NCBI GenBank assembly: GCA_965219345.1
Contig: OZ244732.1
Coordinates: forward strand, 992,001 to 1,056,000
Reading direction: 5' to 3'
DNA length: 64,000 nt
Source: Nitrosopumilus sp.
GTDB taxonomy: Archaea > Thermoproteota > Nitrososphaeria > Nitrososphaerales > Nitrosopumilaceae
In this document: piece after piece, positions 15,879 through 47,531 of the stretch
Numbering within the stretch: position 1 is the first letter of the stretch
How the letters are laid out: each line of letters starts with the position of its first letter
Program-made: the position numbers and the translations under genes
The notes under the pieces: generated by a model
Database searches by the model: none
The model's input: only the letters and a program-made list of their open reading frames with translations
Told to the model about the DNA's origin: nothing

Positions 15879-15952
15879 GGTTCTGTAACGTTATCGTTAC
15901 CTGAAAACACGATCTTCTAAGGATTGAGATTTTACAAGCTAAAATGATGATA

Positions 15953-17080
15953 TTATTGATATTGACTAAGTGAGGCGTTTTGAATGATGGTCTTCCACTT
16001 GTTATTTCCATCAACTAGAATACCAGCTAATTCGGCTGGAGTCTTCTTGCCAATTCCACCATGCTTCTTTGAGAAATTGTAAAATGTCTGAAATCCGTCA
16101 AAGAGAGGACTGTCCATCTTTTTTATTCCCCTGTATGATACTTCCCTGTCTCTGATTGTACCGTTCAATCGCTCCATTCTGTTGTTGTTTTTGTCGCCTT
16201 TCATGTGGATATGGCGTATATGTTTCGTGTCTTTACATAGGAAATTCTTGGCCTTGTAGTTATTTTTCCATGCCTCATGGAAATTATGAGCTCCATCAGA
16301 GATTAGGGTTTTTGGTATCTTGTCTGCAATCATCATGGCTTCCCTGAACATTGGGTTTACATTTTCAGTACCTTTTGTATTTGCCACATATTGGGTAATC
16401 ATAAATCTGGTCTCATGGTCTAACATGGAATACTGGAGTTTCATATTGCCTTTTATCTTCATAAAAATCTCATCTGTTCTCCAAGTTTCAGATACCCTTG
16501 GAACTATGCCCTTTACGTAATCTGCAACCATCTTAGAGTATTTTTCAATCCATCTGTATACTGTCATGTGAGATACCTTGATGTCCTCCTGTTCAAAAGC
16601 ATCTGCAATATCCCTGACACTCATTCCTGCAAAGTACGATTGTAAGGCACGTGTAATTAGTACGTCCTTTGATCTCATTTTCTCAAAACCTAAATTTAGT
16701 GTGAATATCTTCTTACAATCCTTGCATTTGTATTGCTGGGTATTGCCTTTCCTGTTTTTTCTGATTCCCTTTTTGGTTAACCTGCCTGATGAACAGAACT
16801 TGCATAATGGGAGTTTTGACTGATCCATCATTCTAAATTCCTGTCTGGTATTACTTTGATTCTTTTTGATTAGTTCCAGTACAATCTTGATGTGCTTGCA
16901 GTCTGATTTTCTTTTGATGTGGTCTGGACAATCGCAAATTAACCCACCATCTGTCCTTGATATGATATAGTGAATCTGTGGTATGCTTTGTGATCTTACG
17001 CTGAATTTTTCAGGACTGAACTGTTTTACACAGTTTGGTTTTTCCATCATTTGTCTGGCTCTCTGGGTTCTTGGGTTCAT
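15953..17080 (-). CDS. IS6-family DDE transposase with N-terminal SWIM and Zn-ribbon domains
   Basis: CDCPDH..CKH (SWIM), CKFC..CKDC, TVYRWI (HTH), WRTDE, ISDG and NNRMERLNGTIR; ATG at 17080 preferred. Confidence 0.9.
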   Translation of the reverse strand: MNPRTQRARQMMEKPNCVKQFSPEKFSVRSQSIPQIHYIISRTDGGLICDCPDHIKRKSDCKHIKIVLELIKKNQSNTRQEFRMMDQSKLPLCKFCSSGRLTKKGIRKNRKGNTQQYKCKDCKKIFTLNLGFEKMRSKDVLITRALQSYFAGMSVRDIADAFEQEDIKVSHMTVYRWIEKYSKMVADYVKGIVPRVSETWRTDEIFMKIKGNMKLQYSMLDHETRFMITQYVANTKGTENVNPMFREAMMIADKIPKTLISDGAHNFHEAWKNNYKAKNFLCKDTKHIRHIHMKGDKNNNRMERLNGTIRDREVSYRGIKKMDSPLFDGFQTFYNFSKKHGGIGKKTPAELAGILVDGNNKWKTIIQNASLSQYQ

Positions 17081-17181
17081 ACAATAAGGTATCATTTACG
17101 GTAATATAAACATAAGGTAATAATTAAGGTATCAATACAATAAGGTAATAATAAATACCAGTACCTTATTTGATACCTTAT
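17081..17181. promoter_or_regulatory. Divergent promoter region with repeated TAAGGTA boxes (putative operators)
   Basis: Four TAAGGTA and two inverted TACCTTA copies within about 100 bp. Confidence 0.6.
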
Positions 17182-17347
17182 GGTAGAGTCTACAAAACTG
17201 CAAGCTGCAAATATAGCCAAGTCACTTAGAGCTACTGTGCCTATGTCAATAGTCAAACAACTTGAATTGAACGAAGGCGATTATCTCGAATGGGATTTGG
17301 ACAAAGACAGTAAGGGTTGGGTTGTCAAGGTGAGGAGGAGAAAGTGA
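17180..17347 (+). CDS. AbrB/MazE/SpoVT-like small regulator (55 aa)
   Basis: Manual translation MVESTKLQAANIAKSLRATVPMSIVKQLELNEGDYLEWDLDKDSKGWVVKVRRRK; paralogue at 43147-43329. Below ORF-track cutoff. Confidence 0.85.
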   Translation: MVESTKLQAANIAKSLRATVPMSIVKQLELNEGDYLEWDLDKDSKGWVVKVRRRK

Positions 17348-17354
17348 GATCAAT

Positions 17355-18224
17355 TTGATCAATTCAAAACTTAAACGTAAAGGAGTAAGGGTAAATGTAA
17401 CATTGAGACAAAAGACAAAACTCAAAGTTGATTTGGATAAAATCTACAATGAGAACTGTCTTAAGACGATGGCAAAAATGCCTGATAATTTTCTAGACCT
17501 TGTGATTACATCTCCTCCTTATGATAACATGAGACGATATGATGGCAATACCTTTTGTGAGTTTGAGCAGATAGCTGCGGAATTGTATCGTGTAATAAAA
17601 GTAGGCGGAGTCGTTGTATGGGTTGTAGGTGATCAGACTAAGAGTGGTGACGAAAGCGGGTCATCGTTCAAACACGCTTTGTATTTTAAAAAAATTGGTT
17701 TTAACCTGTTTGATACGATGATATATCTAAAACCCCCTCGTGGTGCAGTGGGAAATAACAAGACATACTGGCAGACATTCGAGTACATGTTTGTATTGTC
17801 AAAAGGACTGCCTAAAACAATCAATCTGCTAATGGACAGAGAAAACAAGGATGCAAGAGATGGTGATAACGGCACAAAGCGTCTGCATAACGGCAATCTG
17901 AAAAAACTAAGACGTGGAGGATATGAAAAAAATGGCAGAAGAACCAACGTATGGCAGTATAATATCGGCAATGGACATTCCGCAACCGACAGTTTCGCAC
18001 ACAAACACCCTGCAATCTTTCCTGAAAGTCTGGCAGAAGATCATATTTTGTCGTGGAGTGATAAGAACGATATCGTGTATGATCCATTTATGGGATCAGG
18101 AACCACTGCAAAGATGGTAATGCTAAACAAGCGTCACTATATTGGCAGTGAGATAAGCAAGGATTATTACAAGCTCGCAAATGACCGAATAAAGGATTGT
18201 CAGACCCAGATGCGACTAAGTTAA
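17355..18224 (+). CDS. Beta-class amino (N4-C/N6-A) DNA methyltransferase
   Basis: ITSPPY precedes HPAIFP and VYDPFMGSGTT; exact start uncertain. Confidence 0.92.
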   Translation: MINSKLKRKGVRVNVTLRQKTKLKVDLDKIYNENCLKTMAKMPDNFLDLVITSPPYDNMRRYDGNTFCEFEQIAAELYRVIKVGGVVVWVVGDQTKSGDESGSSFKHALYFKKIGFNLFDTMIYLKPPRGAVGNNKTYWQTFEYMFVLSKGLPKTINLLMDRENKDARDGDNGTKRLHNGNLKKLRRGGYEKNGRRTNVWQYNIGNGHSATDSFAHKHPAIFPESLAEDHILSWSDKNDIVYDPFMGSGTTAKMVMLNKRHYIGSEISKDYYKLANDRIKDCQTQMRLS

Positions 18225-18616
18225 AATGGTGTCGAGAGTGCAAACGGGATAAACTGGGAATACATTTTGCCAAGAACCAGTTTGGAAAAGATAACAGAAT
18301 ACTACGCAGACCTGTCTGCAAGGAATGTTATGCCAAAAAGAAGACAATAGACCCAAAGCTAAGGCGTGAATATTTAAAAAAACATCCTGCACCTGCAATA
18401 GGCAAGAGATTTACCTGTCCAATATGTCAAAAATCAAAAATCAGGGAACACAATAACGAGGTAAACCTTGATCATAACCATAAAACAGGCAAGATTAGGG
18501 GATGGATATGTAGCAGCTGTAACACAAGCATAGGCAAATTCAATGAGGATGTGAACGTCCTTGAAAGGGCAATCAAGTGGCTAAAGGGAACATTGCTGTC
18601 CTTCTTCTTCTTGTGA
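18197..18616 (+). CDS. Hpy99I-like betabetaalpha-Me (EndoVII/HNH) restriction endonuclease
   Basis: CxxC..F.KNQ..RPVCKEC..FTCPIC..LDHNHKTG..RGWICSSCN..IG.F layout; overlaps the methyltransferase stop. Confidence 0.8.
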   Translation: MSDPDATKLKWCRECKRDKLGIHFAKNQFGKDNRILRRPVCKECYAKKKTIDPKLRREYLKKHPAPAIGKRFTCPICQKSKIREHNNEVNLDHNHKTGKIRGWICSSCNTSIGKFNEDVNVLERAIKWLKGTLLSFFFL

Positions 18617-18720
18617 AGCGACGGTACTTAACACGGATAATCAGGCGACGCTAACTTAGCAATACCTTGAATCAATCCTTAGAAGATCGTGTTTTCAGGT
18701 AACGATAACGTTACAGAACC

Positions 18721-19537: not shown

Positions 19538-20313
19538 TTTGAGTGTCTTGACTGTAAAAAGAAATTCTCTACAAACTTTGGATTTGAAAATATGAGATAT
19601 GACTATACCGTCATAACAGGAGCTCTACAAATGTACTATTCAGGTATGAGTGTAAGAGACATTGAAAATCACTATGAAATGCTGGGAATTGAAGTAGACC
19701 ACAGTTCTATCATGATTGGATTTGTAAATATTCTATAATGGTTAGCAAGTATCCAAATGAGATAGTTCCTAGAACCAACGAAAGAGTAATGGTAAGAGCC
19801 GATGAGGTTTGGATTAAGGTAAATGGCAAACAGAATTATTTGTTTGCCTCAATGGAAGATGATAGTCGTCATTGGCTAGCTAGCGATATGGCAGATACAA
19901 AGTTTCAACACAATGCAGACAATCTATTAAAGCTCACAAAGGAAGCAATAGGCAGAAATCCAGTTTATTTTGTAACTGACGGATTACCAGCTTGTTGTAT
20001 GAAATCATCAAAGAAAGTGTTTGGAAAAAAGACACTTCATACTAGGCATATTCACATTCAAAAGGATATGAACAACAACAAAATGGAGAGGATGAACGGA
20101 GAAATCAGAGACAGAGAGAAAGTATTCAGAAGTCTTAAGAAGATTGATACACCTATCATTGATGGTATGAAAGCCTATTACAATTTCACAAAAAAACATG
20201 GTATATTGAAAGGAAAAACTCCAAGTGAGGAAGCCTTGATTAAAGTAGATGGGAAAAATAGATGGAAAGCTATCATTGAGAACGCTAGTCTTTACAGGGA
20301 GAATTCGGTCTGA
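19538..20313 (+). pseudogene. IS6-family transposase remnant (5' truncated, frameshift near 19710)
   Basis: FECLDCKKKF..GALQMYYSGMSVRDI in one frame, then RADE, VTDG and NNKMERMNGEIRDRE. Confidence 0.88.
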
Positions 20314-37413: not shown

Positions 37414-37537
37414 GGTTCTGTGTAATCTTCGGGTGCCGATTTTCTCAAAAAAATTACTCAGCAGCCGTACTGAGTGAGGCGTTTTGGATTATGGTTTTCC
37501 ACTTGTTAACCCCATCAACCGAAGATTACACAGAACC
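37414..37537. mobile_element. 124-bp MITE-like IS6 deletion derivative
   Basis: 19-bp TIRs GGTTCTGTGTAATCTTCGG; interior encodes VDGVNKWKTIIQNASLSTAAE* on the minus strand (IS6 transposase C-terminus); no TSD. Confidence 0.88.
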
Positions 37538-41360: not shown

Positions 41361-41500
41361 AATTATACTTTATTGGCGATTTTGTTTTAAAGTGTTGCTA
41401 ATGATGGTTCTGTGAAGTTATCGTGTGTTAGCATGAAATGCGGATCTTCTCTGAATTGAATGAAGATTATGATACCTGACTATCTGGGTTTTTGGAAATT

Positions 41501-41722
41501 TTAAATTCTTTTGGAATATTTCTCACTAAACTTGATTTCATGTTTATGCCTATTTTTGGAATGTCGGGGCTTGTGTTTTAGATATGTCTCACAACAGGGA
41601 CATTTATGATTCCCACTCCATTCCAAAAAAACATCACAACTTGGACAATATTTAGAATTCGCTGTGTCGTACTGCCGTCTTGATTTCTTATATTTGCTAC
41701 AAAATCCATCACAAGACATCAT
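41501..41722 (-). CDS. Small Cys-rich Zn-finger-like protein (cargo of element B)
   Basis: CDGFC...CPSC..F.EW.G..CPCC...LKHKPR. Confidence 0.7.
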   Translation of the reverse strand: MMSCDGFCSKYKKSRRQYDTANSKYCPSCDVFLEWSGNHKCPCCETYLKHKPRHSKNRHKHEIKFSEKYSKRI

Positions 41723-41730
41723 GCATCACA

Positions 41731-42267
41731 TTACGGTTCAATCATTATAATTTTGACAGGAACTGACGGAACAGATCTATTCAGACGTTCAATGTCATAT
41801 TCTAACTGTTCACCATAAGACACGCCACTTGACATCTCCCTCATCATGCTGTATGTTGGAACAATTTCCACACCAACATCTATTTTTCCAGCATTGTAAA
41901 AATGTTGAAATTTTGACATATCATAAAACATGAAAGCATATTTGCCAAATTGAACCTCTACGTTAACTTTGTCCTTGTTGTAATCAATTTGCTTATATGA
42001 TGATATTTCCTTGTTTTTTGATATAGGTATGGTATAGTTGAGACGTATTTCTCGGAATCGCCTACTGGAAAAATTCGCTTGAAAGCTATCGTTTAACTCT
42101 CTTGGATTATACAGTTGTTTTCCTTTTCTGTTTTTTTCTTTTGAGATTTTTGTCTTAAATGGAGATACATCTGAAATTATGTCATTTATCTCACTGTTAA
42201 TTTCAGAAAATCTAGCAGCTAATATTTCACTCCCACCCAAATGAGAATACGTCTTTTTTATTTTCAT
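41731..42267 (-). CDS. BglII/BstYI-family type II restriction endonuclease
   Basis: YSHLGG, KQIDYNKDKVNVEVQFGKYAF and MSSGVSYGE motifs; ATG at 42267 overlaps the methyltransferase TGA (ATGA). Confidence 0.88.
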   Translation of the reverse strand: MKIKKTYSHLGGSEILAARFSEINSEINDIISDVSPFKTKISKEKNRKGKQLYNPRELNDSFQANFSSRRFREIRLNYTIPISKNKEISSYKQIDYNKDKVNVEVQFGKYAFMFYDMSKFQHFYNAGKIDVGVEIVPTYSMMREMSSGVSYGEQLEYDIERLNRSVPSVPVKIIMIEP

Positions 42268-43114
42268 GTTTGCATTCCGTATATTGGCCTGTTCATAGGT
42301 CTCGTTCGTAGTTTGTTTGTGGCAAGAAGCCTCAATCTGCTGCACAATATAGTAACATACTTTTGCTCTTTCTCAGAACCCAAACAATTTCTACCATGTT
42401 TCAGAGATGCGATTGCGGTAGTACCAGAGCCAATGTATGGATCATATACCATGTCTCCTTTATCAGTAAGTGCCAAGACGAGCCTCTCAACCAGTTCAAC
42501 AGGGAATTGTGCAGGATGTGAAGTTTTTTCAACATGGTTGTGTTTTACATTTGGGATTTCCCAGACATCAGATGGATTTTTTCCAAGTGGATTGCAACTT
42601 AGTTCCCCTTTTTTCTTACCTGAAAAATAATGTTTGGATGGATACTTTTGTGGAATGCGTATTGGATCAAGATTGAATGTGTAATTATCAGATTTTGTAA
42701 ACCATAATATTGTTTCATATCTGCCAGAAAGACGCTTTGAGCAATGTAATCCATGTCCAAAATGCCAAATTATCCTATTTCTTAGAAATAAATTCATGTC
42801 AGTAAAAATAGGATACAATACCATGTCCAATGGTGTGATCATTCCATTTTCTACAAAATTACCTACCTGCCAGCAGATCGAACCAGTAATTTTTAATTTC
42901 CTGACACATTCCCGTATTACTAGTTTTTGGTTTTTGATGTATTCATTCAATCCTTGTTTCTTTTCATATTCTTTGCCCAGATTGTATGGTGGTGATGTTA
43001 CAATTAATTGAATTGAATTGTTTGGTATTCTCTTAAGACAGTCTAGACAATCACCTGTGAAGATGGTGTTAGATACAGTTTGTTTGGAAGTATTCTTCCC
43101 CCCCCCTCATTCAT
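42264..43114 (-). CDS. Beta-class amino DNA methyltransferase, frameshifted at a 5' G9 tract
   Basis: Frame open from 43106 contains FTGDCLD, VTSPPYN, HPAQFP and YDPYIGSGTT; both upstream ATGs (43110, 43114) are out of frame across G9. Confidence 0.88.
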
Positions 43115-43146
43115 TTTGTATTTTGTCGTTTTTTTCATTGTATTAA

Positions 43147-43329
43147 TCACTCTTTCTTAGTTATCTTGGCTAACCAAGTTTTACCATCCTTATCTAATTG
43201 CCAGTTGAGATGATCTCCATCCTCTAACCCGATTTGCTGAACTACAAAAACTGGTATTGTGGTTCTCAGTGACTTGCTCTTTGATGTTGCAGGTGTGCAT
43301 ACTGTTTCTGTTCCCTCTAATCTTCCCAT
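43147..43329 (-). CDS. AbrB/MazE/SpoVT-like small regulator
   Basis: KSLRTTIPVFVVQQIGLEDGDHLNWQLDKD; paralogue of 17180-17347. Confidence 0.85.
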   Translation of the reverse strand: MGRLEGTETVCTPATSKSKSLRTTIPVFVVQQIGLEDGDHLNWQLDKDGKTWLAKITKKE

Positions 43330-43426
43330 ATAGGTAAATTAATTTAAACATATATTAATTTACCTATATTACAGATTTACCTATATATTTACCAATATTT
43401 ATATATGCAATTAGTTTACCTATATT
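43328..43426. promoter_or_regulatory. Divergent promoter region with repeated TTTACCTATA boxes (putative operators)
   Basis: Three TTTACCTATA, one TTTACCAATA and one inverted TATAGGTAAA. Confidence 0.6.
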
Positions 43427-43443
43427 ATGAATCAAAGAGAAAT

Positions 43444-43506
43444 GAGGGCAATGATGAGACCTACGACTTCTGACTCTATGATGAGTGAGATGACCTCTGA
43501 GCCCTC
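43444..43506 (+). ncRNA. Archaeal box C/D sRNA-like element
   Basis: C ATGATGA 43451-57; 12-nt guide; D' CTGA 43470-73; C' ATGATGA 43478-84; 12-nt guide; D CTGA 43497-500; closing stem GAGGGC/GCCCTC. Confidence 0.82.
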
Positions 43507-43554
43507 ATCTTTTGATTCATTTGATTCTATATTAATTTTCGAGGTGCAGTATGT

Positions 43555-44679
43555 ATGAACTCCAGAACTTAAAGAGCCAAACAAATGATGGAACTGCCAA
43601 ACTGCGCAGTACAGTTTAGCCCAGAAAAATTTAGCGTGAGATCACAAAGCATGCCACAAATTCACTATATCGTATCAAAGACAGATGGTGGGTTAATTTG
43701 TGATTGTCCAGATCACATCAAAAGAAAATCAGACTGCAAGCACATCAAGATAGTCTTGGAGCTAATCAGGAAAAATCAATGCAAGACTCAAGAGTTTAGA
43801 ATGATGGATAGGTCGAATTTCAATCTATGTAAATTCTGTGACTCTGGCAGACTGAAAAAGGATGGAATTAGAAAAAACAAGAAAGGTGATGTCCAGCAAT
43901 ACAAATGCCAAGACTGTAAAAAGAGATTTGTCTTGAACCTTGGATTTGAGAAAATGCGTTATGATCCTGTCTTAATCACTAGAGCTTTACAAATGTATTT
44001 TTCAGGTATGAGTATCAGGGATATTGCAGATTGCTTTGAGCAGGAAGAAATCAAAGTGTCTTATAGAGCAGTTTATGATTGGATTGACAAATATTCTCAA
44101 ATGGTTACAGATTATGTAAAAGGAATCGTGCCAAGAGTATCTGAAACATGGAGAACAGATGAAATCTTTATGAAAATTAGCGGTGTTCAAAAACTACAGT
44201 ATTCCATGCTTGACCATGAAACTAGATTTATGATTACCCAATTTGTAGCCAATACTAAAGGCACGGAAAATGTCGAGCCAATGTTTAGAGAAGCCATAAT
44301 GATTGCAGATAAAATCCCAACTACATTAATCTCTGATGGTGCAAAGAACTTTCACAAGGCTTGGAAAGATAATTACAAAGCCAAGAATCCATTATGGAAA
44401 GACACGGAACATATACGCCACATTCACATGAAAGGCGATAAAAACAATAATCGCATGGAAAGATTGAATGGGACTATCAGAGATCGTGAAGTTGCATATA
44501 GAGGAATAAAAAAGATGAATAGTCCTCTTTTTAATGGATTCCAAGCATTTTACAATTTCTCAAAAAAACATGGTGGAATTGACAAGAAAACTCCAGCAGA
44601 AAAAGCAGGTATTTTGGTTGATGGAGATAACAAATGGAAGACCTTGATTCAAAATACCTCACTTAGTCAATATCAATAA
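43555..44679 (+). CDS. IS6-family DDE transposase with SWIM and Zn-ribbon domains; TAA at codon 6, open from ATG 43585
   Basis: Closely similar to 15953-17080; ATG AAC TCC AGA ACT TAA aligns with MNPRTQ of element A. Confidence 0.9.
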
Positions 44680-44921
44680 TCATTATTTTAGGAATCTTTG
44701 TTTTAGAACTTGTAAATTTCAGGCAGATTTTTCAATCTTTAGAAGATCCGCATTTCATGCTAACACACGATAACTTCACAGAACCTAATGATTATGATGT
44801 ATGTAGAGATAGTTTTTGTGATCGCCATCGTATTATAATTTTTATTACTATAATTTGTAATGACTTTAAGAAATGTAAAAACAATTGTGTACTCTAACTT
44901 TTTTTTATTTTCATTACATAT

Positions 44922-46938: not shown

Positions 46939-47023
46939 GCAGAGATCGCCTAGTTTGGTAGGGCGTTTGACTTATGATCAAATGTTTCGCAAGGACCCGC
47001 GGGTTCAAATCCCATTCTCTGCG
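46939..47023 (+). tRNA. Atypical class II (long variable arm) tRNA with TAT anticodon; possible pseudo-tRNA
   Basis: Acceptor GCAGAGA/TCTCTGC, D arm GCC..GG..GGC, anticodon stem TTTGA/TCAAA with loop CTTATGA, T loop GGGTTCAAATCCC; C-A mismatch in the T stem. Confidence 0.8.
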
Positions 47024-47031
47024 TTTTACGA

Positions 47032-47531
47032 GGTTCTGTGTAATCTTCGGTTCATGGATCTTATTCCAAATTTTCCCTCGGAAGCGAGGCGTTTTGAATT
47101 ACTGTCCTCCACTTGTTAGGACCATCAACCTCAATCATTGAGGCCTGTGCCGGAGTCCTGCCTTTCAAGGCTCCATGCTTTTTTGTGAAATTATAGTAGA
47201 CTCTCATGCCCTCAATGACTGCGGTGTCCATTCTTTTCAAGCCTCTGAATACCTTTTCCCTGTCCCTGATTTCACCGTTCAGCCTTTCCATCTTGTTGTT
47301 GTTCATATCCCCCTTTAGGTGAATGTGTCTCACGTGGTTTGTCTTTTTTCCAAAAACTTTCTTACTTGATTTCATATATGCTGGTAATCCATCAGTAATG
47401 AAATTTTTAGGATTCTTTCCAACTTGAAGCTTGGTCATTAATAATAGATTGTCTGCATTGTGCTGAAATTTAGTACTGGCAATATCTGAAGCCAGCCAGT
47501 AACGTGTATCATCATCCATAGAGGCAAATAT
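47032..47531 (-). mobile_element. Truncated IS6 element: one TIR plus transposase C-terminal half
   Basis: GGTTCTGTGTAATCTTCGG at 47032 (same as the MITE TIR); FASMDDDTRYW, ITDG and NNKMERLNGEIRDRE. Confidence 0.88.

What the first reader, a model, noticed from the sequence alone, without database searches (positions are those of the whole stretch)
43444..43506. A canonical box C/D guide RNA carried inside a transposon, in the transposase leader
Seen: ATGATGA-[GACCTACGACTT]-CTGA-ctct-ATGATGA-[GTGAGATGACCT]-CTGA. All four boxes are perfect, both guides are 12 nt, and a closing stem is present. Known: this is the architecture of archaeal sRNAs bound by L7Ae, Nop5 and fibrillarin, which methylate the base paired to the fifth nucleotide upstream of D/D'. 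The guides share GACCT, so their complements merge into one 19-nt sequence, AAGTCGTAGGTCATCTCAC. I found no full target in the window. Inference: the element may mobilise an RNA-modification guide, recruit host C/D proteins to control its own mRNA, or use them for guided targeting. No Nop-domain gene is present in the element.
Basis: partly seen in the sequence, partly recalled or inferred. Interest (0 to 1): 0.9.

Follow-up and report, generated by a model that had tools for sequence, protein, structure and literature searches.

The report
Methylation-guide RNA inside an archaeal transposon
A textbook box C/D guide RNA gene sits in a fixed slot just upstream of the transposase inside a 3.4-kb cargo-carrying jumping gene of an ammonia-oxidising archaeon, and sister elements keep the same slot filled with other guide RNAs or a tRNA.

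Summary
Window 43444-43506 holds a perfect double box C/D sRNA: C, D', C' and D boxes, two 12-nt guides and a covarying closing stem. Only two such patterns exist in the 1.91-Mb genome, and both lie upstream of paralogous IS6-type transposase genes.

It lies inside a real transposon, window 41406-44785. The transposon has 45-bp perfect terminal inverted repeats and a 7-bp target duplication. Its cargo is a BglII-like restriction-modification pair and an AbrB-like regulator.

The RNA belongs to a family (stem GAGGGC/GCCCTC) that occurs in related genomes without any transposase, often in tandem arrays. In transposons it is part of a roughly 150-nt cassette: RNA, T-tract, conserved linker, Shine-Dalgarno-like motif. 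All 9 cassette-bearing transposase starts have the linker and the SD-like motif. Of 10 cassette-less, apparently leaderless starts, none has the linker. Two sister elements carry a tRNA-Leu gene in the same slot.

Guides differ between lineages but are conserved between orthologues (22/24 and 24/24 nt). I found no rRNA, tRNA or own-element target for this copy.

Most likely it is a captured, functional host-type guide RNA that doubles as a processed stable-RNA leader of the transposase transcript. Expression is untested. RNA-guided transposition is unsupported.

The parts
41406..41450 (+). Left terminal inverted repeat of the transposon (45 bp, starts GGTTCTG)
   Evidence: identical over 45 nt to the reverse complement of 44741-44785.
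44741..44785 (-). Right terminal inverted repeat
   Evidence: Similarity among own, L007, L008 and L009 ends here.
41399..41405 (.). Target-site duplication TAATGAT (left copy; right copy at 44786-44792)
   Evidence: flanks. Sister elements L007, L008 and L010 show 8-bp duplications, read from the flanks printed.
41731..42345 (-). Cargo: BglII-like restriction endonuclease
   Evidence: PF09195, E 3.1e-22.
42264..42950 (-). Cargo: N4/N6 DNA methyltransferase
   Evidence: PF01555, E 2.3e-47.
43147..43329 (-). Divergent small SpoVT/AbrB (MazE-like) regulator gene
   Evidence: PF04014 at 23.3 bits, just under the 24.7 cut-off. A homologous gene sits in the same place in element L008.
43328..43427 (.). 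Divergent promoter region with four copies of ATTTACCTATAT (operator-like) and a TATA-like TTTATATA at 43398-43405
   Evidence: (D3, D8, I3, I4, I12). The roles as operator and TATA box are inferred.
43444..43506 (+). Box C/D sRNA core: stem, C box, 12-nt D' guide, D', 5-nt loop, C', 12-nt D guide, D, stem
   Evidence: covariation; R1 78.5 bits, E 2e-18.
43427..43521 (+). Extended imperfect hairpin enclosing the sRNA (AUGAAUCAA pairs with UUGAUUCAU)
   Evidence: A similar outer pairing is visible in G581a, G581b and L021el (read by eye from the sequences printed, not scored).
43427..43558 (+). 43-codon open frame running through the sRNA. Its ATG resembles the transposase start, and its TGA overlaps the transposase ATG (ATGA)
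   Evidence: open in 6 of 7 transposase-linked copies. The C' box sits in a different frame in L013el, so the boxes are selected as RNA.
43507..43554 (+). Conserved linker: T-tract (43510-43513), TATATTAATTTT (43528-43539), SD-like GAGGTG (43542-43547)
   Evidence: present in 9 of 9 cassette-bearing copies and 0 of 10 cassette-less copies.
43555..44679 (+). IS6-type DDE transposase. The conserved ATGAAC start is at 43555, an in-frame TAA is at 43570-43572, and the intact 364-aa ORF starts at 43585
   Evidence: (PF13610, E 5.1e-13, 49.8 bits).

Best explanation
This is a genuine archaeal box C/D sRNA gene of a family native to this genus. The record titles of the nearest transposase relatives read Nitrosopumilus sp. 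The gene has been captured into an IS6-family cargo transposon.

The gene is the first part of a roughly 150-nt cassette: sRNA in a long hairpin, a T-tract, a conserved linker and a Shine-Dalgarno-like motif. The cassette sits between the element's regulated promoter (operator-like repeats next to a divergent AbrB-like gene) and the transposase start codon.

Proposed mechanism (inferred):
1. Transcription starts near 43427.
2. Host L7Ae, Nop5 and fibrillarin assemble on the two kink-turn motifs of the nascent leader, and the sRNP is trimmed out as a stable guide RNA.
3. Only transcripts that read through the T-tract carry the transposase ORF. That ORF is no longer leaderless, so it is translated from the SD-like motif.
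4. The cassette therefore both delivers a trans-acting methylation guide and throttles or uncouples transposase expression.

The same slot can be filled by a tRNA gene, so what the slot requires is a processed stable RNA rather than a particular guide.

Shown here: the motif, the family, the covariation, the transposon borders, the cassette-SD linkage and guide conservation between orthologues.
Inferred: transcription start, co-transcription, processing, protein binding and any methylation.
For: Motif
- All boxes are perfect, with 12-nt guides.
- There are only 2 genome-wide hits. The pattern occurs in 8 of 401 genomes of the order against 0 for the reversed control.
- There are 51 Rfam sub-threshold hits, all to C/D families.

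Stem
- On 11 sequences, 98.9% of cells are paired, 3 of 8 pairs change on both sides, and 0 of 500 shuffles reach the covariation score.

Host machinery
- Fibrillarin, Nop5 and L7Ae are present.

Family
- Model R1 finds the family in 17 of 151 genomes of the family sample and 14 of 151 of the genus sample.
- Most copies lack a transposase, and several are in tandem arrays.
- In the own genome the 3 strong R1 hits are all transposase-linked.

Transposon
- 45-bp perfect TIRs plus a TAATGAT duplication.
- DDE_Tnp_IS240 transposase.

Slot
- C/D sRNAs with different guides sit at the same distance from the transposase ATG in own, L013el, L021el, G340, G582, G581a and G581b.
- C/D-like RNAs occupy the slot in L100, L101/L102 and L110.
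- A tRNA-Leu(CAG) occupies it in L010 and L012. This tRNA is unlike the host's own tRNA-Leu(CAG).

Cassette
- The linker and SD-like motif are present in 9 of 9 cassette-bearing starts. Among 10 cassette-less starts, 0 have the linker and 1 has an SD-like match.
- SD 5-mers precede only 5.9% of 764 crude ORF starts genome-wide, against 2.9% background.

Guides under constraint
- Own versus G581a: core 60/63 identical and guides 22/24, while the flanks are 62% and 77% identical.
- G340 versus G582: the printed guide strings are the same, 24/24.

Literature
- Sense sRNAs overlapping 5' ends of ORFs are thought to be co-transcribed and usually have orphan guides (PMC6009581, section 24 read).
Against: - No RNA run holds the locus, so there is no evidence on expression, transcript ends or processing. 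laid DNA contigs only.
- Neither guide of this copy has rRNA, tRNA or own-element complementarity above shuffled guides. Methylation function is therefore unproven here.
- rRNA complementarity of sister guides is only mildly enriched: 5 of 44 guide-by-rRNA tests have a shuffle fraction of 0.05 or less.
- The linker holds a TATA-like TATATTAA about 20-27 nt upstream of the transposase ATG, and a T4 tract follows the sRNA. Two separate transcription units remain possible.
- The cassette is dispensable for mobility. L007 and L008 (84% aa identity) have intact TIRs and 8-bp duplications without it.
- This copy's transposase has a TAA at codon 6 after the conserved start, so the element may be impaired.
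- Partner TIRs of L013el and L021el were not found.
Confidence: 0.55

Rival explanations
1. Independent passenger gene. The sRNA is ordinary cargo with its own promoter and oligo-T terminator. The transposase is transcribed separately from the TATA-like box in the linker. The fixed position reflects only shared ancestry of the cassette, and there is no functional coupling.
For: - There is a TATA-like TATATTAA at 43528-43535 and a T-tract after the stem. L021el and G340 have T6 tracts.
- The same sRNA family lives without any transposase in other genomes.
- In G581a the sRNA core is 60/63 identical to this copy although only a 35-aa C-terminal stretch of the transposase is matched there.
Against: - The SD-like motif is strictly linked to the cassette (9 of 9, against 1 of 10 without it). 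It would lie upstream of a transcript started from the linker TATA, so its conservation would be unexplained.
- The linker TATA is about 7 nt closer to the ATG than the TATA of the leaderless copies L007 and L008.
- A tRNA in the very same slot with the same linker suggests a constraint on the position.
Confidence: 0.3
2. Kink-turn riboregulator. The C/D motifs matter mainly as L7Ae/Nop5 binding sites on the transposase leader. Either RNP assembly competes with translation of the 43-codon leaderless frame that ends in the ATGA overlap, or it acts as a protective 5' end. Transposase output would then track the host's free C/D protein pool, and the guides would be irrelevant.
For: - The frame from ATGAAT to the ATGA overlap is open in 6 of 7 linked copies, and cassette lengths differ by 0 or 3 nt.
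- Its ATG lies about 22-30 nt downstream of the TATA-like box, as for a leaderless mRNA.
- This copy's guides are orphans.
- Recalled, not checked here: L7Ae represses translation through 5'-UTR K-turns in Sulfolobus.
- L7Ae-binding K-turn RNAs linked to transposase ORFs are reported in Pyrococcus abyssi and Sulfolobus solfataricus (PMC3124441, passages read).
Against: - Guides are conserved between orthologues well above the flanks (22/24 and 24/24). A pure protein-binding role would not require this.
- tRNA-bearing elements have no such frame.
- With 12-nt guides the C/D architecture leaves that frame free of box-derived stops anyway. The one interrupted frame (L021el) is broken inside a guide, as chance would give.
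- The ATG is lost in G582 and G581a.
Confidence: 0.12
3. RNA-guided transposition. The element uses the C/D RNP or the RNA itself to choose insertion sites, by analogy with IS110 bridge RNA, TnpB omega RNA or TIGR-Tas.
For: Only the general analogy: structural kinship of Nop-domain RNPs, IS110 and TIGR-Tas (PMC12045711, passages read), plus two programmable 12-nt guides next to a transposase.
Against: - The transposase is a DDE IS240/IS6 type with ordinary TIRs and target duplications.
- There is no Nop-domain gene in the element.
- The flanks of the insertion show no complementarity to either guide, and the guide complements occur nowhere else in the genome at 0 mismatches.
- Close paralogues transposed without any RNA cassette.
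- A tRNA can replace the sRNA.
Confidence: 0.02
4. Chance motif, or purely a small protein-coding gene whose Met-Met and Ser-Asp/Glu codons mimic the boxes.
For: An open 43-codon frame exists.
Against: - By my own arithmetic from base composition, the expected number of chance genome-wide hits is well under 0.01, and 2 are observed. The reversed control gives 0 in 401 genomes.
- In L013el the C' box is perfectly kept but shifted by one base relative to the frame (MMS becomes RDE), and the stem change is compensatory. This is selection on RNA, not on a peptide.
Confidence: 0.01

Closest known systems
Archaeal box C/D sRNAs co-transcribed with a downstream ORF (category 1 of Lui et al. 2018, PMC6009581, section 24 read; Tripp et al. 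2017 known to me only through citations in PMC6009581 and PMC12045711)
   Same: A sense-strand C/D sRNA sits at the 5' side of a protein gene. Its guides are mostly orphans. Maturation is thought to depend only on the kink-turns, with the sRNA rescued from the mRNA precursor.
   Different: - Here the downstream gene is a transposase and the whole unit is mobile.
- The sRNA does not overlap the ORF but is joined to it by a conserved linker with an SD-like motif.
- The slot is alternatively filled by a tRNA.
- The host is a mesophilic ammonia oxidiser, not a hyperthermophile.
MITE-like sRNA elements of Pyrobaculum calidifontis (PMC6009581, section 22 read)
   Same: C/D sRNA-like sequences are flanked by conserved inverted repeats and are multiplied within a genome. 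The guides are orphan or poorly conserved. The authors proposed a role in spreading sRNA genes.
   Different: - Those are non-autonomous, have no transposase and have degenerate C'/D' boxes.
- Here the sRNA has four perfect boxes and rides inside an autonomous DDE transposon with cargo genes.
- The inverted repeat next to the sRNA here is the RNA's own stem, not the transposon end.
IS6 family insertion sequences
   Same: The transposase has a DDE_Tnp_IS240 domain. The TIRs begin with GG, and sister copies make 8-bp target duplications.
   Different: Classical members are recalled as about 0.8 kb with one gene. This element is 3.4 kb with a restriction-modification pair, a regulator and an RNA gene, and its transposase has a long N-terminal Cys/His-rich extension (seen in the translation).
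Dicistronic tRNA-snoRNA genes of plants and Nanoarchaeum (as cited in passages of PMC6009581 and PMC12045711)
   Same: Stable RNAs are processed out of a shared precursor, and tRNA and C/D RNA are interchangeable neighbours.
   Different: There the partner is another stable RNA. Here it is an mRNA for a transposase, and tRNA and sRNA are alternatives for one slot rather than neighbours.
L7Ae-binding kink-turn RNAs linked to OrfB (IS200/605/607) transposase genes in Pyrococcus abyssi and Sulfolobus solfataricus (PMC3124441, passages read)
   Same: Small kink-turn RNAs are physically linked to archaeal transposase genes.
   Different: Those lie at or in the 3' end of OrfB genes and are not dual-guide C/D RNAs. 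This one is a canonical C/D sRNA 5' of a DDE transposase.
TIGR-Tas arrays and IS110 bridge RNA (PMC12045711, passages read)
   Same: Dual-spacer guide RNAs, and evolutionary kinship with box C/D RNPs.
   Different: The element has no Nop-domain effector and no DEDD recombinase. It carries a single unit, not an array, and there is no guide-to-insertion-site match.

Membership tests
Archaeal box C/D sRNA | Box C (RUGAUGA) near the 5' end and box D (CUGA) near the 3' end, able to form a kink-turn closed by a terminal stem | tested here: met
   A-UGAUGA and CUGA are flanked by GAGGGC/GCCCTC, with a 3-nt bulge (AAU) before the G.A pairs. Stem covariation is shown.
Archaeal box C/D sRNA | Internal D' and C' boxes forming a K-loop | tested here: met
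   CTGA, then CTCTA, then TGATGA, both boxes perfect.
Archaeal box C/D sRNA | Guide spacers of about 12 nt between C-D' and C'-D | tested here: met
   12 and 12 nt. Sisters have 11-12 nt.
Archaeal box C/D sRNA | Host encodes L7Ae, Nop5 and fibrillarin | tested here: met
   each is over its Pfam cut-off.
Archaeal box C/D sRNA | Guide complementarity to rRNA or tRNA placing a target nucleotide at the fifth position from D/D' | tested here: not met
   the best scores are 9-10.5 of 12, and shuffled guides do as well. The best case is tRNA-Val, matched or beaten by 5 of 60 shuffles. Some sister guides do better, for example G286a D' with 11 contiguous pairs on 23S, reached by 2 of 100 shuffles. Orphan guides are common in accepted sRNAs (PMC6009581, passages).
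Archaeal box C/D sRNA | Expressed as a stable small RNA bound by L7Ae, Nop5 and fibrillarin | not testable with these tools
   No RNA run holds the locus.
IS6-family transposon | DDE transposase of the IS240/IS26 type | tested here: met
   PF13610, 49.8 bits (cut-off 27).
IS6-family transposon | Terminal inverted repeats and a target-site duplication (8 bp is the recalled family norm) | tested here: met
   45-bp perfect TIRs. The duplication is 7 bp here and 8 bp in L007, L008 and L010 (flanks).
IS6-family transposon | Single-gene element of under 1 kb that moves by cointegrate formation (recalled) | tested here: not met
   The element is 3380 bp with at least four genes plus the sRNA. The transposition mechanism is not testable here.
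TIGR-Tas / bridge-RNA type guided mobile system | A Nop-domain (Tas) or DEDD (IS110) effector encoded next to the guide RNA | tested here: not met
   the only Nop hit in the genome is host Nop5, outside the element; the transposase is a DDE type.
Translated upstream ORF coupled to the transposase | Conserved open frame with a start codon, ending at or overlapping the downstream start | tested here: inconclusive
   the frame is open in 6 of 7, an ATG is at the conserved place in 5 of 7, and an ATGA overlap is present in those that keep the transposase ATG. However, the conserved residues all map to RNA motifs, and the C' box changes frame in L013el.

The most novel reading that the evidence does not exclude
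A family of archaeal DDE transposons has a dedicated 'stable-RNA slot' in the transposase leader. Assembly of the host's own C/D methylation machinery (or tRNA processing) on the nascent leader decides whether a transcript becomes a guide RNA or a translatable transposase mRNA. This would tie transposition to the host's RNP-assembly state. At the same time the elements would act as vehicles that move functional 2'-O-methylation guides, some with conserved non-rRNA targets, between Nitrosopumilus genomes.
Probability: 0.2. Interest if true: 0.85.

Novelty: new variant of a known kind. Interest (0 to 1): 0.62.

Why it matters
Box C/D guide RNAs are regarded as chromosomal housekeeping genes. How their repertoires turn over so fast in archaea is an open question.

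This case shows a canonical guide RNA as a conserved module of an autonomous transposon family, with lineage-specific guides that are conserved between orthologues. That gives a concrete route for horizontal spread and duplication of methylation guides. It is also a natural case where a mobile element may use host snoRNP-type assembly, or tRNA processing, to shape transposase expression.

It also documents C/D sRNAs, including tandem arrays, in mesophilic ammonia-oxidising archaea. My literature searches found no description of them in these organisms.

The cassette/no-cassette pairs of closely related transposases make the regulatory idea directly testable with reporters.

Tried and rejected
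Targets
- The exact or near-exact complement of six guides was sought in the whole genome. Only the genes' own antisense strands match perfectly for this copy's guides, and the 1-mismatch hits are at chance level.
- rRNA scans with G:U pairs allowed and shuffled-guide controls, tRNA scans with 15-nt flanks and a scan of both strands of the element itself gave nothing above shuffles for this copy. The best cis hit is 10 of 12 inside the AbrB-like mRNA, reached by 21 of 100 shuffles.
- The merged 19-mer had 0 matches in IMG/VR.
- I did not scan RNase P RNA, SRP RNA, 5S rRNA or metagenome contigs.

Expression
- No RNA holder was listed for the locus.
- Laying four runs gave DNA contigs only. They cover the sRNA without change (X1, X6) but say nothing on transcripts.

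Rfam at gathering thresholds finds only two tRNAs in the window.

Element ends
- I rejected the weak 27-nt inverted repeat (42651/44731) as the element ends once the perfect 45-bp TIRs were found.
- Partner TIRs for L013el and L021el were not found.

Other relatives
- G581a and G581b are scrambled remnants.
- Model R1 on 22 relatives' loci gave only 4 weak hits. By eye these are variant C/D-like RNAs.

Slips and closures
- One search used wrong coordinates for one row (my slip) and was redone.
- Supplementary tables were not open. Those that may bear on this are Lui 2018 S6/S7 and Krupovic 2019 S1, which may list IS6 copies.

Literature
- Searches for C/D sRNAs with transposase or insertion sequence, or in Nitrosopumilus, Nitrososphaera or Thaumarchaeota, found no description of a C/D sRNA inside an IS6-type transposon. 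The library is open-access only, so this does not prove that none is in print.
Full report
**1. The observation**

Reading window 43000-44000 confirms the finding letter for letter. The elements are:
- GAGGGC (43444-43449), then AA
- box C TGATGA (43452-43457)
- a 12-nt spacer GACCTACGACTT
- box D' CTGA
- CTCTA
- box C' TGATGA (43479-43484)
- a 12-nt spacer GTGAGATGACCT
- box D CTGA (43497-43500)
- GCCCTC (43501-43506)

The closing stem is really 8 bp (ATGAGGGC/GCCCTCAT). It continues as an imperfect hairpin out to 43427-43521. The 106-nt stretch folds at -31.9 kcal/mol, z = -4.27, and 0 of 200 shuffles are as stable.

The motif is not a chance event:
- A relaxed regex (spacers 10-13, loop 2-10) hits only two places in the 1.91-Mb genome.
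- The exact pattern hits 8 of 401 genomes of the order (10 places), while the reversed-pattern control hits none.
- Rfam has no family that reaches its gathering score. The permissive search returns 51 sub-threshold matches, every one a C/D-box family on the + strand at these coordinates. The best is sR1 at 36.9 bits, E 3.3e-8.

**2. The host**

The window is C1:992001-1056000 of a 1.91-Mb, 36% G+C genome. The genome encodes archaeal AmoA, fibrillarin, Nop5 and L7Ae, and has one rRNA operon. The nearest relatives of the transposase in the species collection carry record titles reading Nitrosopumilus sp.. The machinery that a C/D sRNA needs is therefore present, but it is encoded outside the element.

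**3. The RNA is inside a transposon**

The 364-aa ORF downstream (43585-44679) has a DDE_Tnp_IS240 domain. The genome holds 38 stretches similar to it, 7 of them full length without stops.

Aligning the 3' flanks of the closest copies shows that similarity ends at ...ACAGAACC. Searching for its reverse complement found an exact copy at C1:1033406 on the + strand and at C1:1036785 on the - strand. The two ends are identical for 45 nt and are flanked by TAATGAT on both sides.

The element is therefore window 41406-44785, 3380 bp. It carries:
- a BglII-like endonuclease gene (41731-42345, -)
- an N4/N6 methyltransferase gene (42264-42950, -)
- a small SpoVT/AbrB-like gene (43147-43329, -)
- the sRNA
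- the transposase

Sister elements with their own perfect end pairs and 8-bp duplications are visible: L007, L008 and L010.

Between the AbrB-like gene and the sRNA lie four copies of ATTTACCTATAT. Element L008 has the same arrangement, with a homologous small gene and repeats of its own. I read these as operators of an element-encoded repressor. This is an inference.

**4. Sister elements keep the boxes and vary the guides**

I examined the upstream 300 nt of 14 paralogues:
- Two distant paralogues (36-39% aa identity) have a C/D sRNA at the same place, with the same stem and unrelated guides. L013el has all four boxes perfect. L021el has box C as TAATGA, and its transposase is broken by stops.
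- L009 has a remnant: box C, then 12 nt, then CAGA.
- L010 and L012 have an 87-nt tRNA-Leu(CAG) gene in the slot. It is quite unlike the host's own tRNA-Leu(CAG), and in L010 it lies inside that element's TIRs.
- L014 keeps only the linker.
- The other seven, including the two closest paralogues L007 and L008 (84% aa), have no RNA gene.

L013el and L021el are 73.5% identical over 1.2 kb including the sRNA, yet their guides are unrelated. L013el has the stem as GAGGGG/CCCCTC, a compensatory change.

**5. The RNA family**

An 11-sequence alignment from five genomes gave these figures:
- 98.9% of cells paired in the 8-bp stem
- 3 of 8 pairs with changes on both sides
- a covariation score reached by 0 of 500 shuffles
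- slid controls at 20-65% paired

The covariance model R1 gave these results:
- In the window it finds only this locus.
- In the own genome it finds three strong hits, all transposase-linked, plus four weak ones at E 6.5e-4 to 0.88. Three of the weak ones look like host C/D sRNAs with degenerate inner boxes.
- In a sample of the family, 17 of 151 genomes have a hit at E <= 1e-5. Of the 30 loci fetched, only the three from this genome contain a transposase homologue.
- In the genus, 14 of 151 genomes have a hit at E <= 1e-6. Of the 27 loci fetched, four contain a transposase homologue: G340 and G582 (full length, 47.5-47.8% aa) and two remnants in G581.

Elsewhere the family occurs without a transposase, strikingly as tandem arrays:
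- 7 and 6 units at two places in G286, with a period of about 130-146 nt
- 9 hits within 1.6 kb in G437
- smaller clusters in G570, G564 and G145

So the RNA is a host-type family, and the transposon copies are captured members (or the reverse; the direction is not settled).

**6. The cassette**

In all seven transposase-linked copies the distance from the start of the stem to the end of the stop that overlaps the transposase ATG is 115 nt, or 118 nt in one.

Between the RNA and the ATG lies a linker that is the best-conserved non-coding piece among elements whose transposases are only about 50% identical (82% over 51 nt for own versus L010). It holds a T-tract, then TATATTAATTTT, then GAGGTG eight bases before the ATG.

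I scored 19 full-length transposase starts from this genome, G340, G582 and the species collection:
- All 9 with an RNA gene in the slot (8 C/D or C/D-like, 1 tRNA) have the linker and an SD-like motif.
- Of the 10 without, none has the linker. One has an SD-like match, and that match lies in its own operator repeat.
- The cassette-less copies have a TATA-like box about 26-35 nt before the ATG, as leaderless genes do.

Genome-wide, SD 5-mers precede only 5.9% of 764 crudely called ORF starts, against 2.9% at random positions. An SD that appears exactly when an RNA gene is placed in front of the ORF is what one expects if the ORF is then internal to a longer transcript. This is my main argument for co-transcription, and it is indirect. 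A TATA-like box inside the linker and the T-tract keep the two-unit alternative alive.

**7. The open frame**

A 43-codon frame runs from ATGAAT at 43427, through the sRNA, to a TGA that overlaps the transposase ATG.
- Its first codons resemble the transposase's own start.
- It lies about 22-30 nt downstream of TTTATATA (43398-43405).
- It is open in 6 of 7 linked copies.
- The ATG is kept in 5 of 7.

The flanking short direct repeat (ATGAAY..AGA at both starts) suggests how the cassette arose, and how it can be lost precisely.

The boxes are nevertheless selected as RNA. In L013el the C' box is intact but shifted by one base relative to the frame, and an 11-nt guide restores the register. The stem change alters two codons in a compensatory way. 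With 12-nt guides the architecture by itself keeps that frame free of box stops, and the only interrupted frame is broken within a guide. Translation of the frame is therefore possible but unproven.

**8. The guides**

For this copy I found no target:
- Genome-wide, only the gene's own antisense strand matches exactly.
- On rRNA the best score is 9-9.5 of 12, and shuffled guides do as well in 43-90% of trials.
- On tRNAs the best is tRNA-Val(CAC), with 9 Watson-Crick plus 3 G:U pairs, matched or beaten by 5 of 60 shuffles.
- Nothing turned up in the element's own transcripts, and the 19-mer is absent from IMG/VR.

Oddly, the D guide is identical in 11 of 12 positions to the sense strand of 16S, seen as the antisense-strand hit.

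Among sister guides, 5 of 44 guide-by-rRNA tests reach a shuffle fraction of 0.05 or less. Examples are G286a D' with 11 contiguous pairs on 23S at position 2062, G145a D' on 23S at position 857, and L021el D on 16S at position 1001. This is a mild enrichment, not proof. L013el's D' guide differs from G286a's by one base.

Guides of the type CTGGCGTT(G)AT recur in G286, G437, G565, G571 and the L009 remnant, and pair with 16S at about 904-914.

Guides are also conserved between orthologous transposon copies:
- Own versus G581a: core 60/63 and guides 22/24, while the 5' flank is 62% identical and the 3' flank 77%.
- G340 versus G582 show the same two guide strings, 24/24, while the sequences printed on either side of the sRNA visibly differ (not scored).

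This argues that the guides do something in trans, even where I cannot name the target.

**9. Comparison with what is known**

- Lui et al. 2018 (PMC6009581; sections 22 and 24 and passages read) describe sense sRNAs at the 5' ends of ORFs. These are probably co-transcribed and have mostly orphan guides. The paper also describes a MITE-like, sRNA-resembling repeat in one Pyrobaculum species, which the authors call the first such case in archaea.
- Phok et al. 2011 (PMC3124441, passages) report L7Ae-binding kink-turn RNAs linked to OrfB transposase genes.
- The TIGR-Tas paper (PMC12045711, passages) relates C/D RNPs to IS110 and TIGR systems and notes clustered sRNA genes in archaea.
- Krupovic et al. 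2019 on thaumarchaeal mobile elements (PMC6563490, passages) describes IS-like transposons as elements of one or two genes and does not use the phrase 'small RNA'.
- My searches found no report of a canonical C/D sRNA as a conserved module of an autonomous DDE transposon, nor of C/D sRNAs in Nitrosopumilus.

**10. Verdict**

The best reading is a captured host-type guide that also serves as a processed stable-RNA leader of the transposase transcript. Second comes an independent passenger gene, then a kink-turn/uORF switch. RNA-guided transposition is not supported.

It is a new variant of known kinds: C/D sRNA, co-transcribed sRNA and sRNA-like MITE. It is of moderate to high interest because it offers a mechanism for guide-RNA mobility and a testable link between host RNP assembly and transposase expression.

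Noticed in passing
L040 (G286:C1:275360-278410) and L042 (G286:C1:450206-453256); also G437:C2:117572-119178: Tandem arrays of 6-9 C/D sRNA genes of the same family, with a period of about 130-146 nt. Units carry different guides, and some have degenerate C boxes. G286 has two near-duplicate arrays. They look like repeat-spacer arrays but use host-type C/D units.
   Followed up: partly
L010 (C1:1730533-1730619) and L012 (C1:1220105-1220191): An 87-nt tRNA-Leu(CAG) gene, unlike the host's own at C1:491458-491544, fills the same slot upstream of the transposase in two sister elements and is followed by the same linker.
   Followed up: partly
C1:1718374-1718456 and C1:1235416-1235499: tRNA-Arg(CCT) genes lie between a transposase remnant and the right IS6-type end in two elements, so these transposons also carry tRNA genes at their other end.
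   Followed up: no
window 15879-18720; 19708-20295; 37414-37537; 47032-47531 with tRNA-Ile(TAT) at 46939-47023: The window holds further IS6-type material: a complete 2.8-kb element (L008), transposase fragments, a pair of inverted ends only 124 bp apart (MITE-like), and an end starting 9 nt after a tRNA-Ile gene.
   Followed up: no
window 43485-43496 versus 16S (C1:1382793-1382804): The D guide equals the sense strand of 16S rRNA in 11 of 12 positions, so it cannot pair with it. L021el's D guide is antisense to the segment just upstream. This is unexplained and possibly chance.
   Followed up: partly
window 43555-43587: This copy's transposase has an in-frame TAA at codon 6 after the conserved ATGAAC start. 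The intact ORF begins 10 codons later at ATGATG.
   Followed up: partly
C1:447048-447117 (-) and L048, L050, L052, L053, L056: A different C/D sRNA candidate (stem GCAGGC/GCCTGC, D guide ..GGATCTTGAGTT) is conserved across several genera of the family. It is probably a core host guide, and its inner boxes are degenerate in this genome.
   Followed up: no
window 41731-42950: The transposon's cargo is a BglII-like endonuclease plus an N4/N6 methyltransferase whose ORFs overlap by 82 nt on the minus strand. This is a mobile restriction-modification pair.
   Followed up: no
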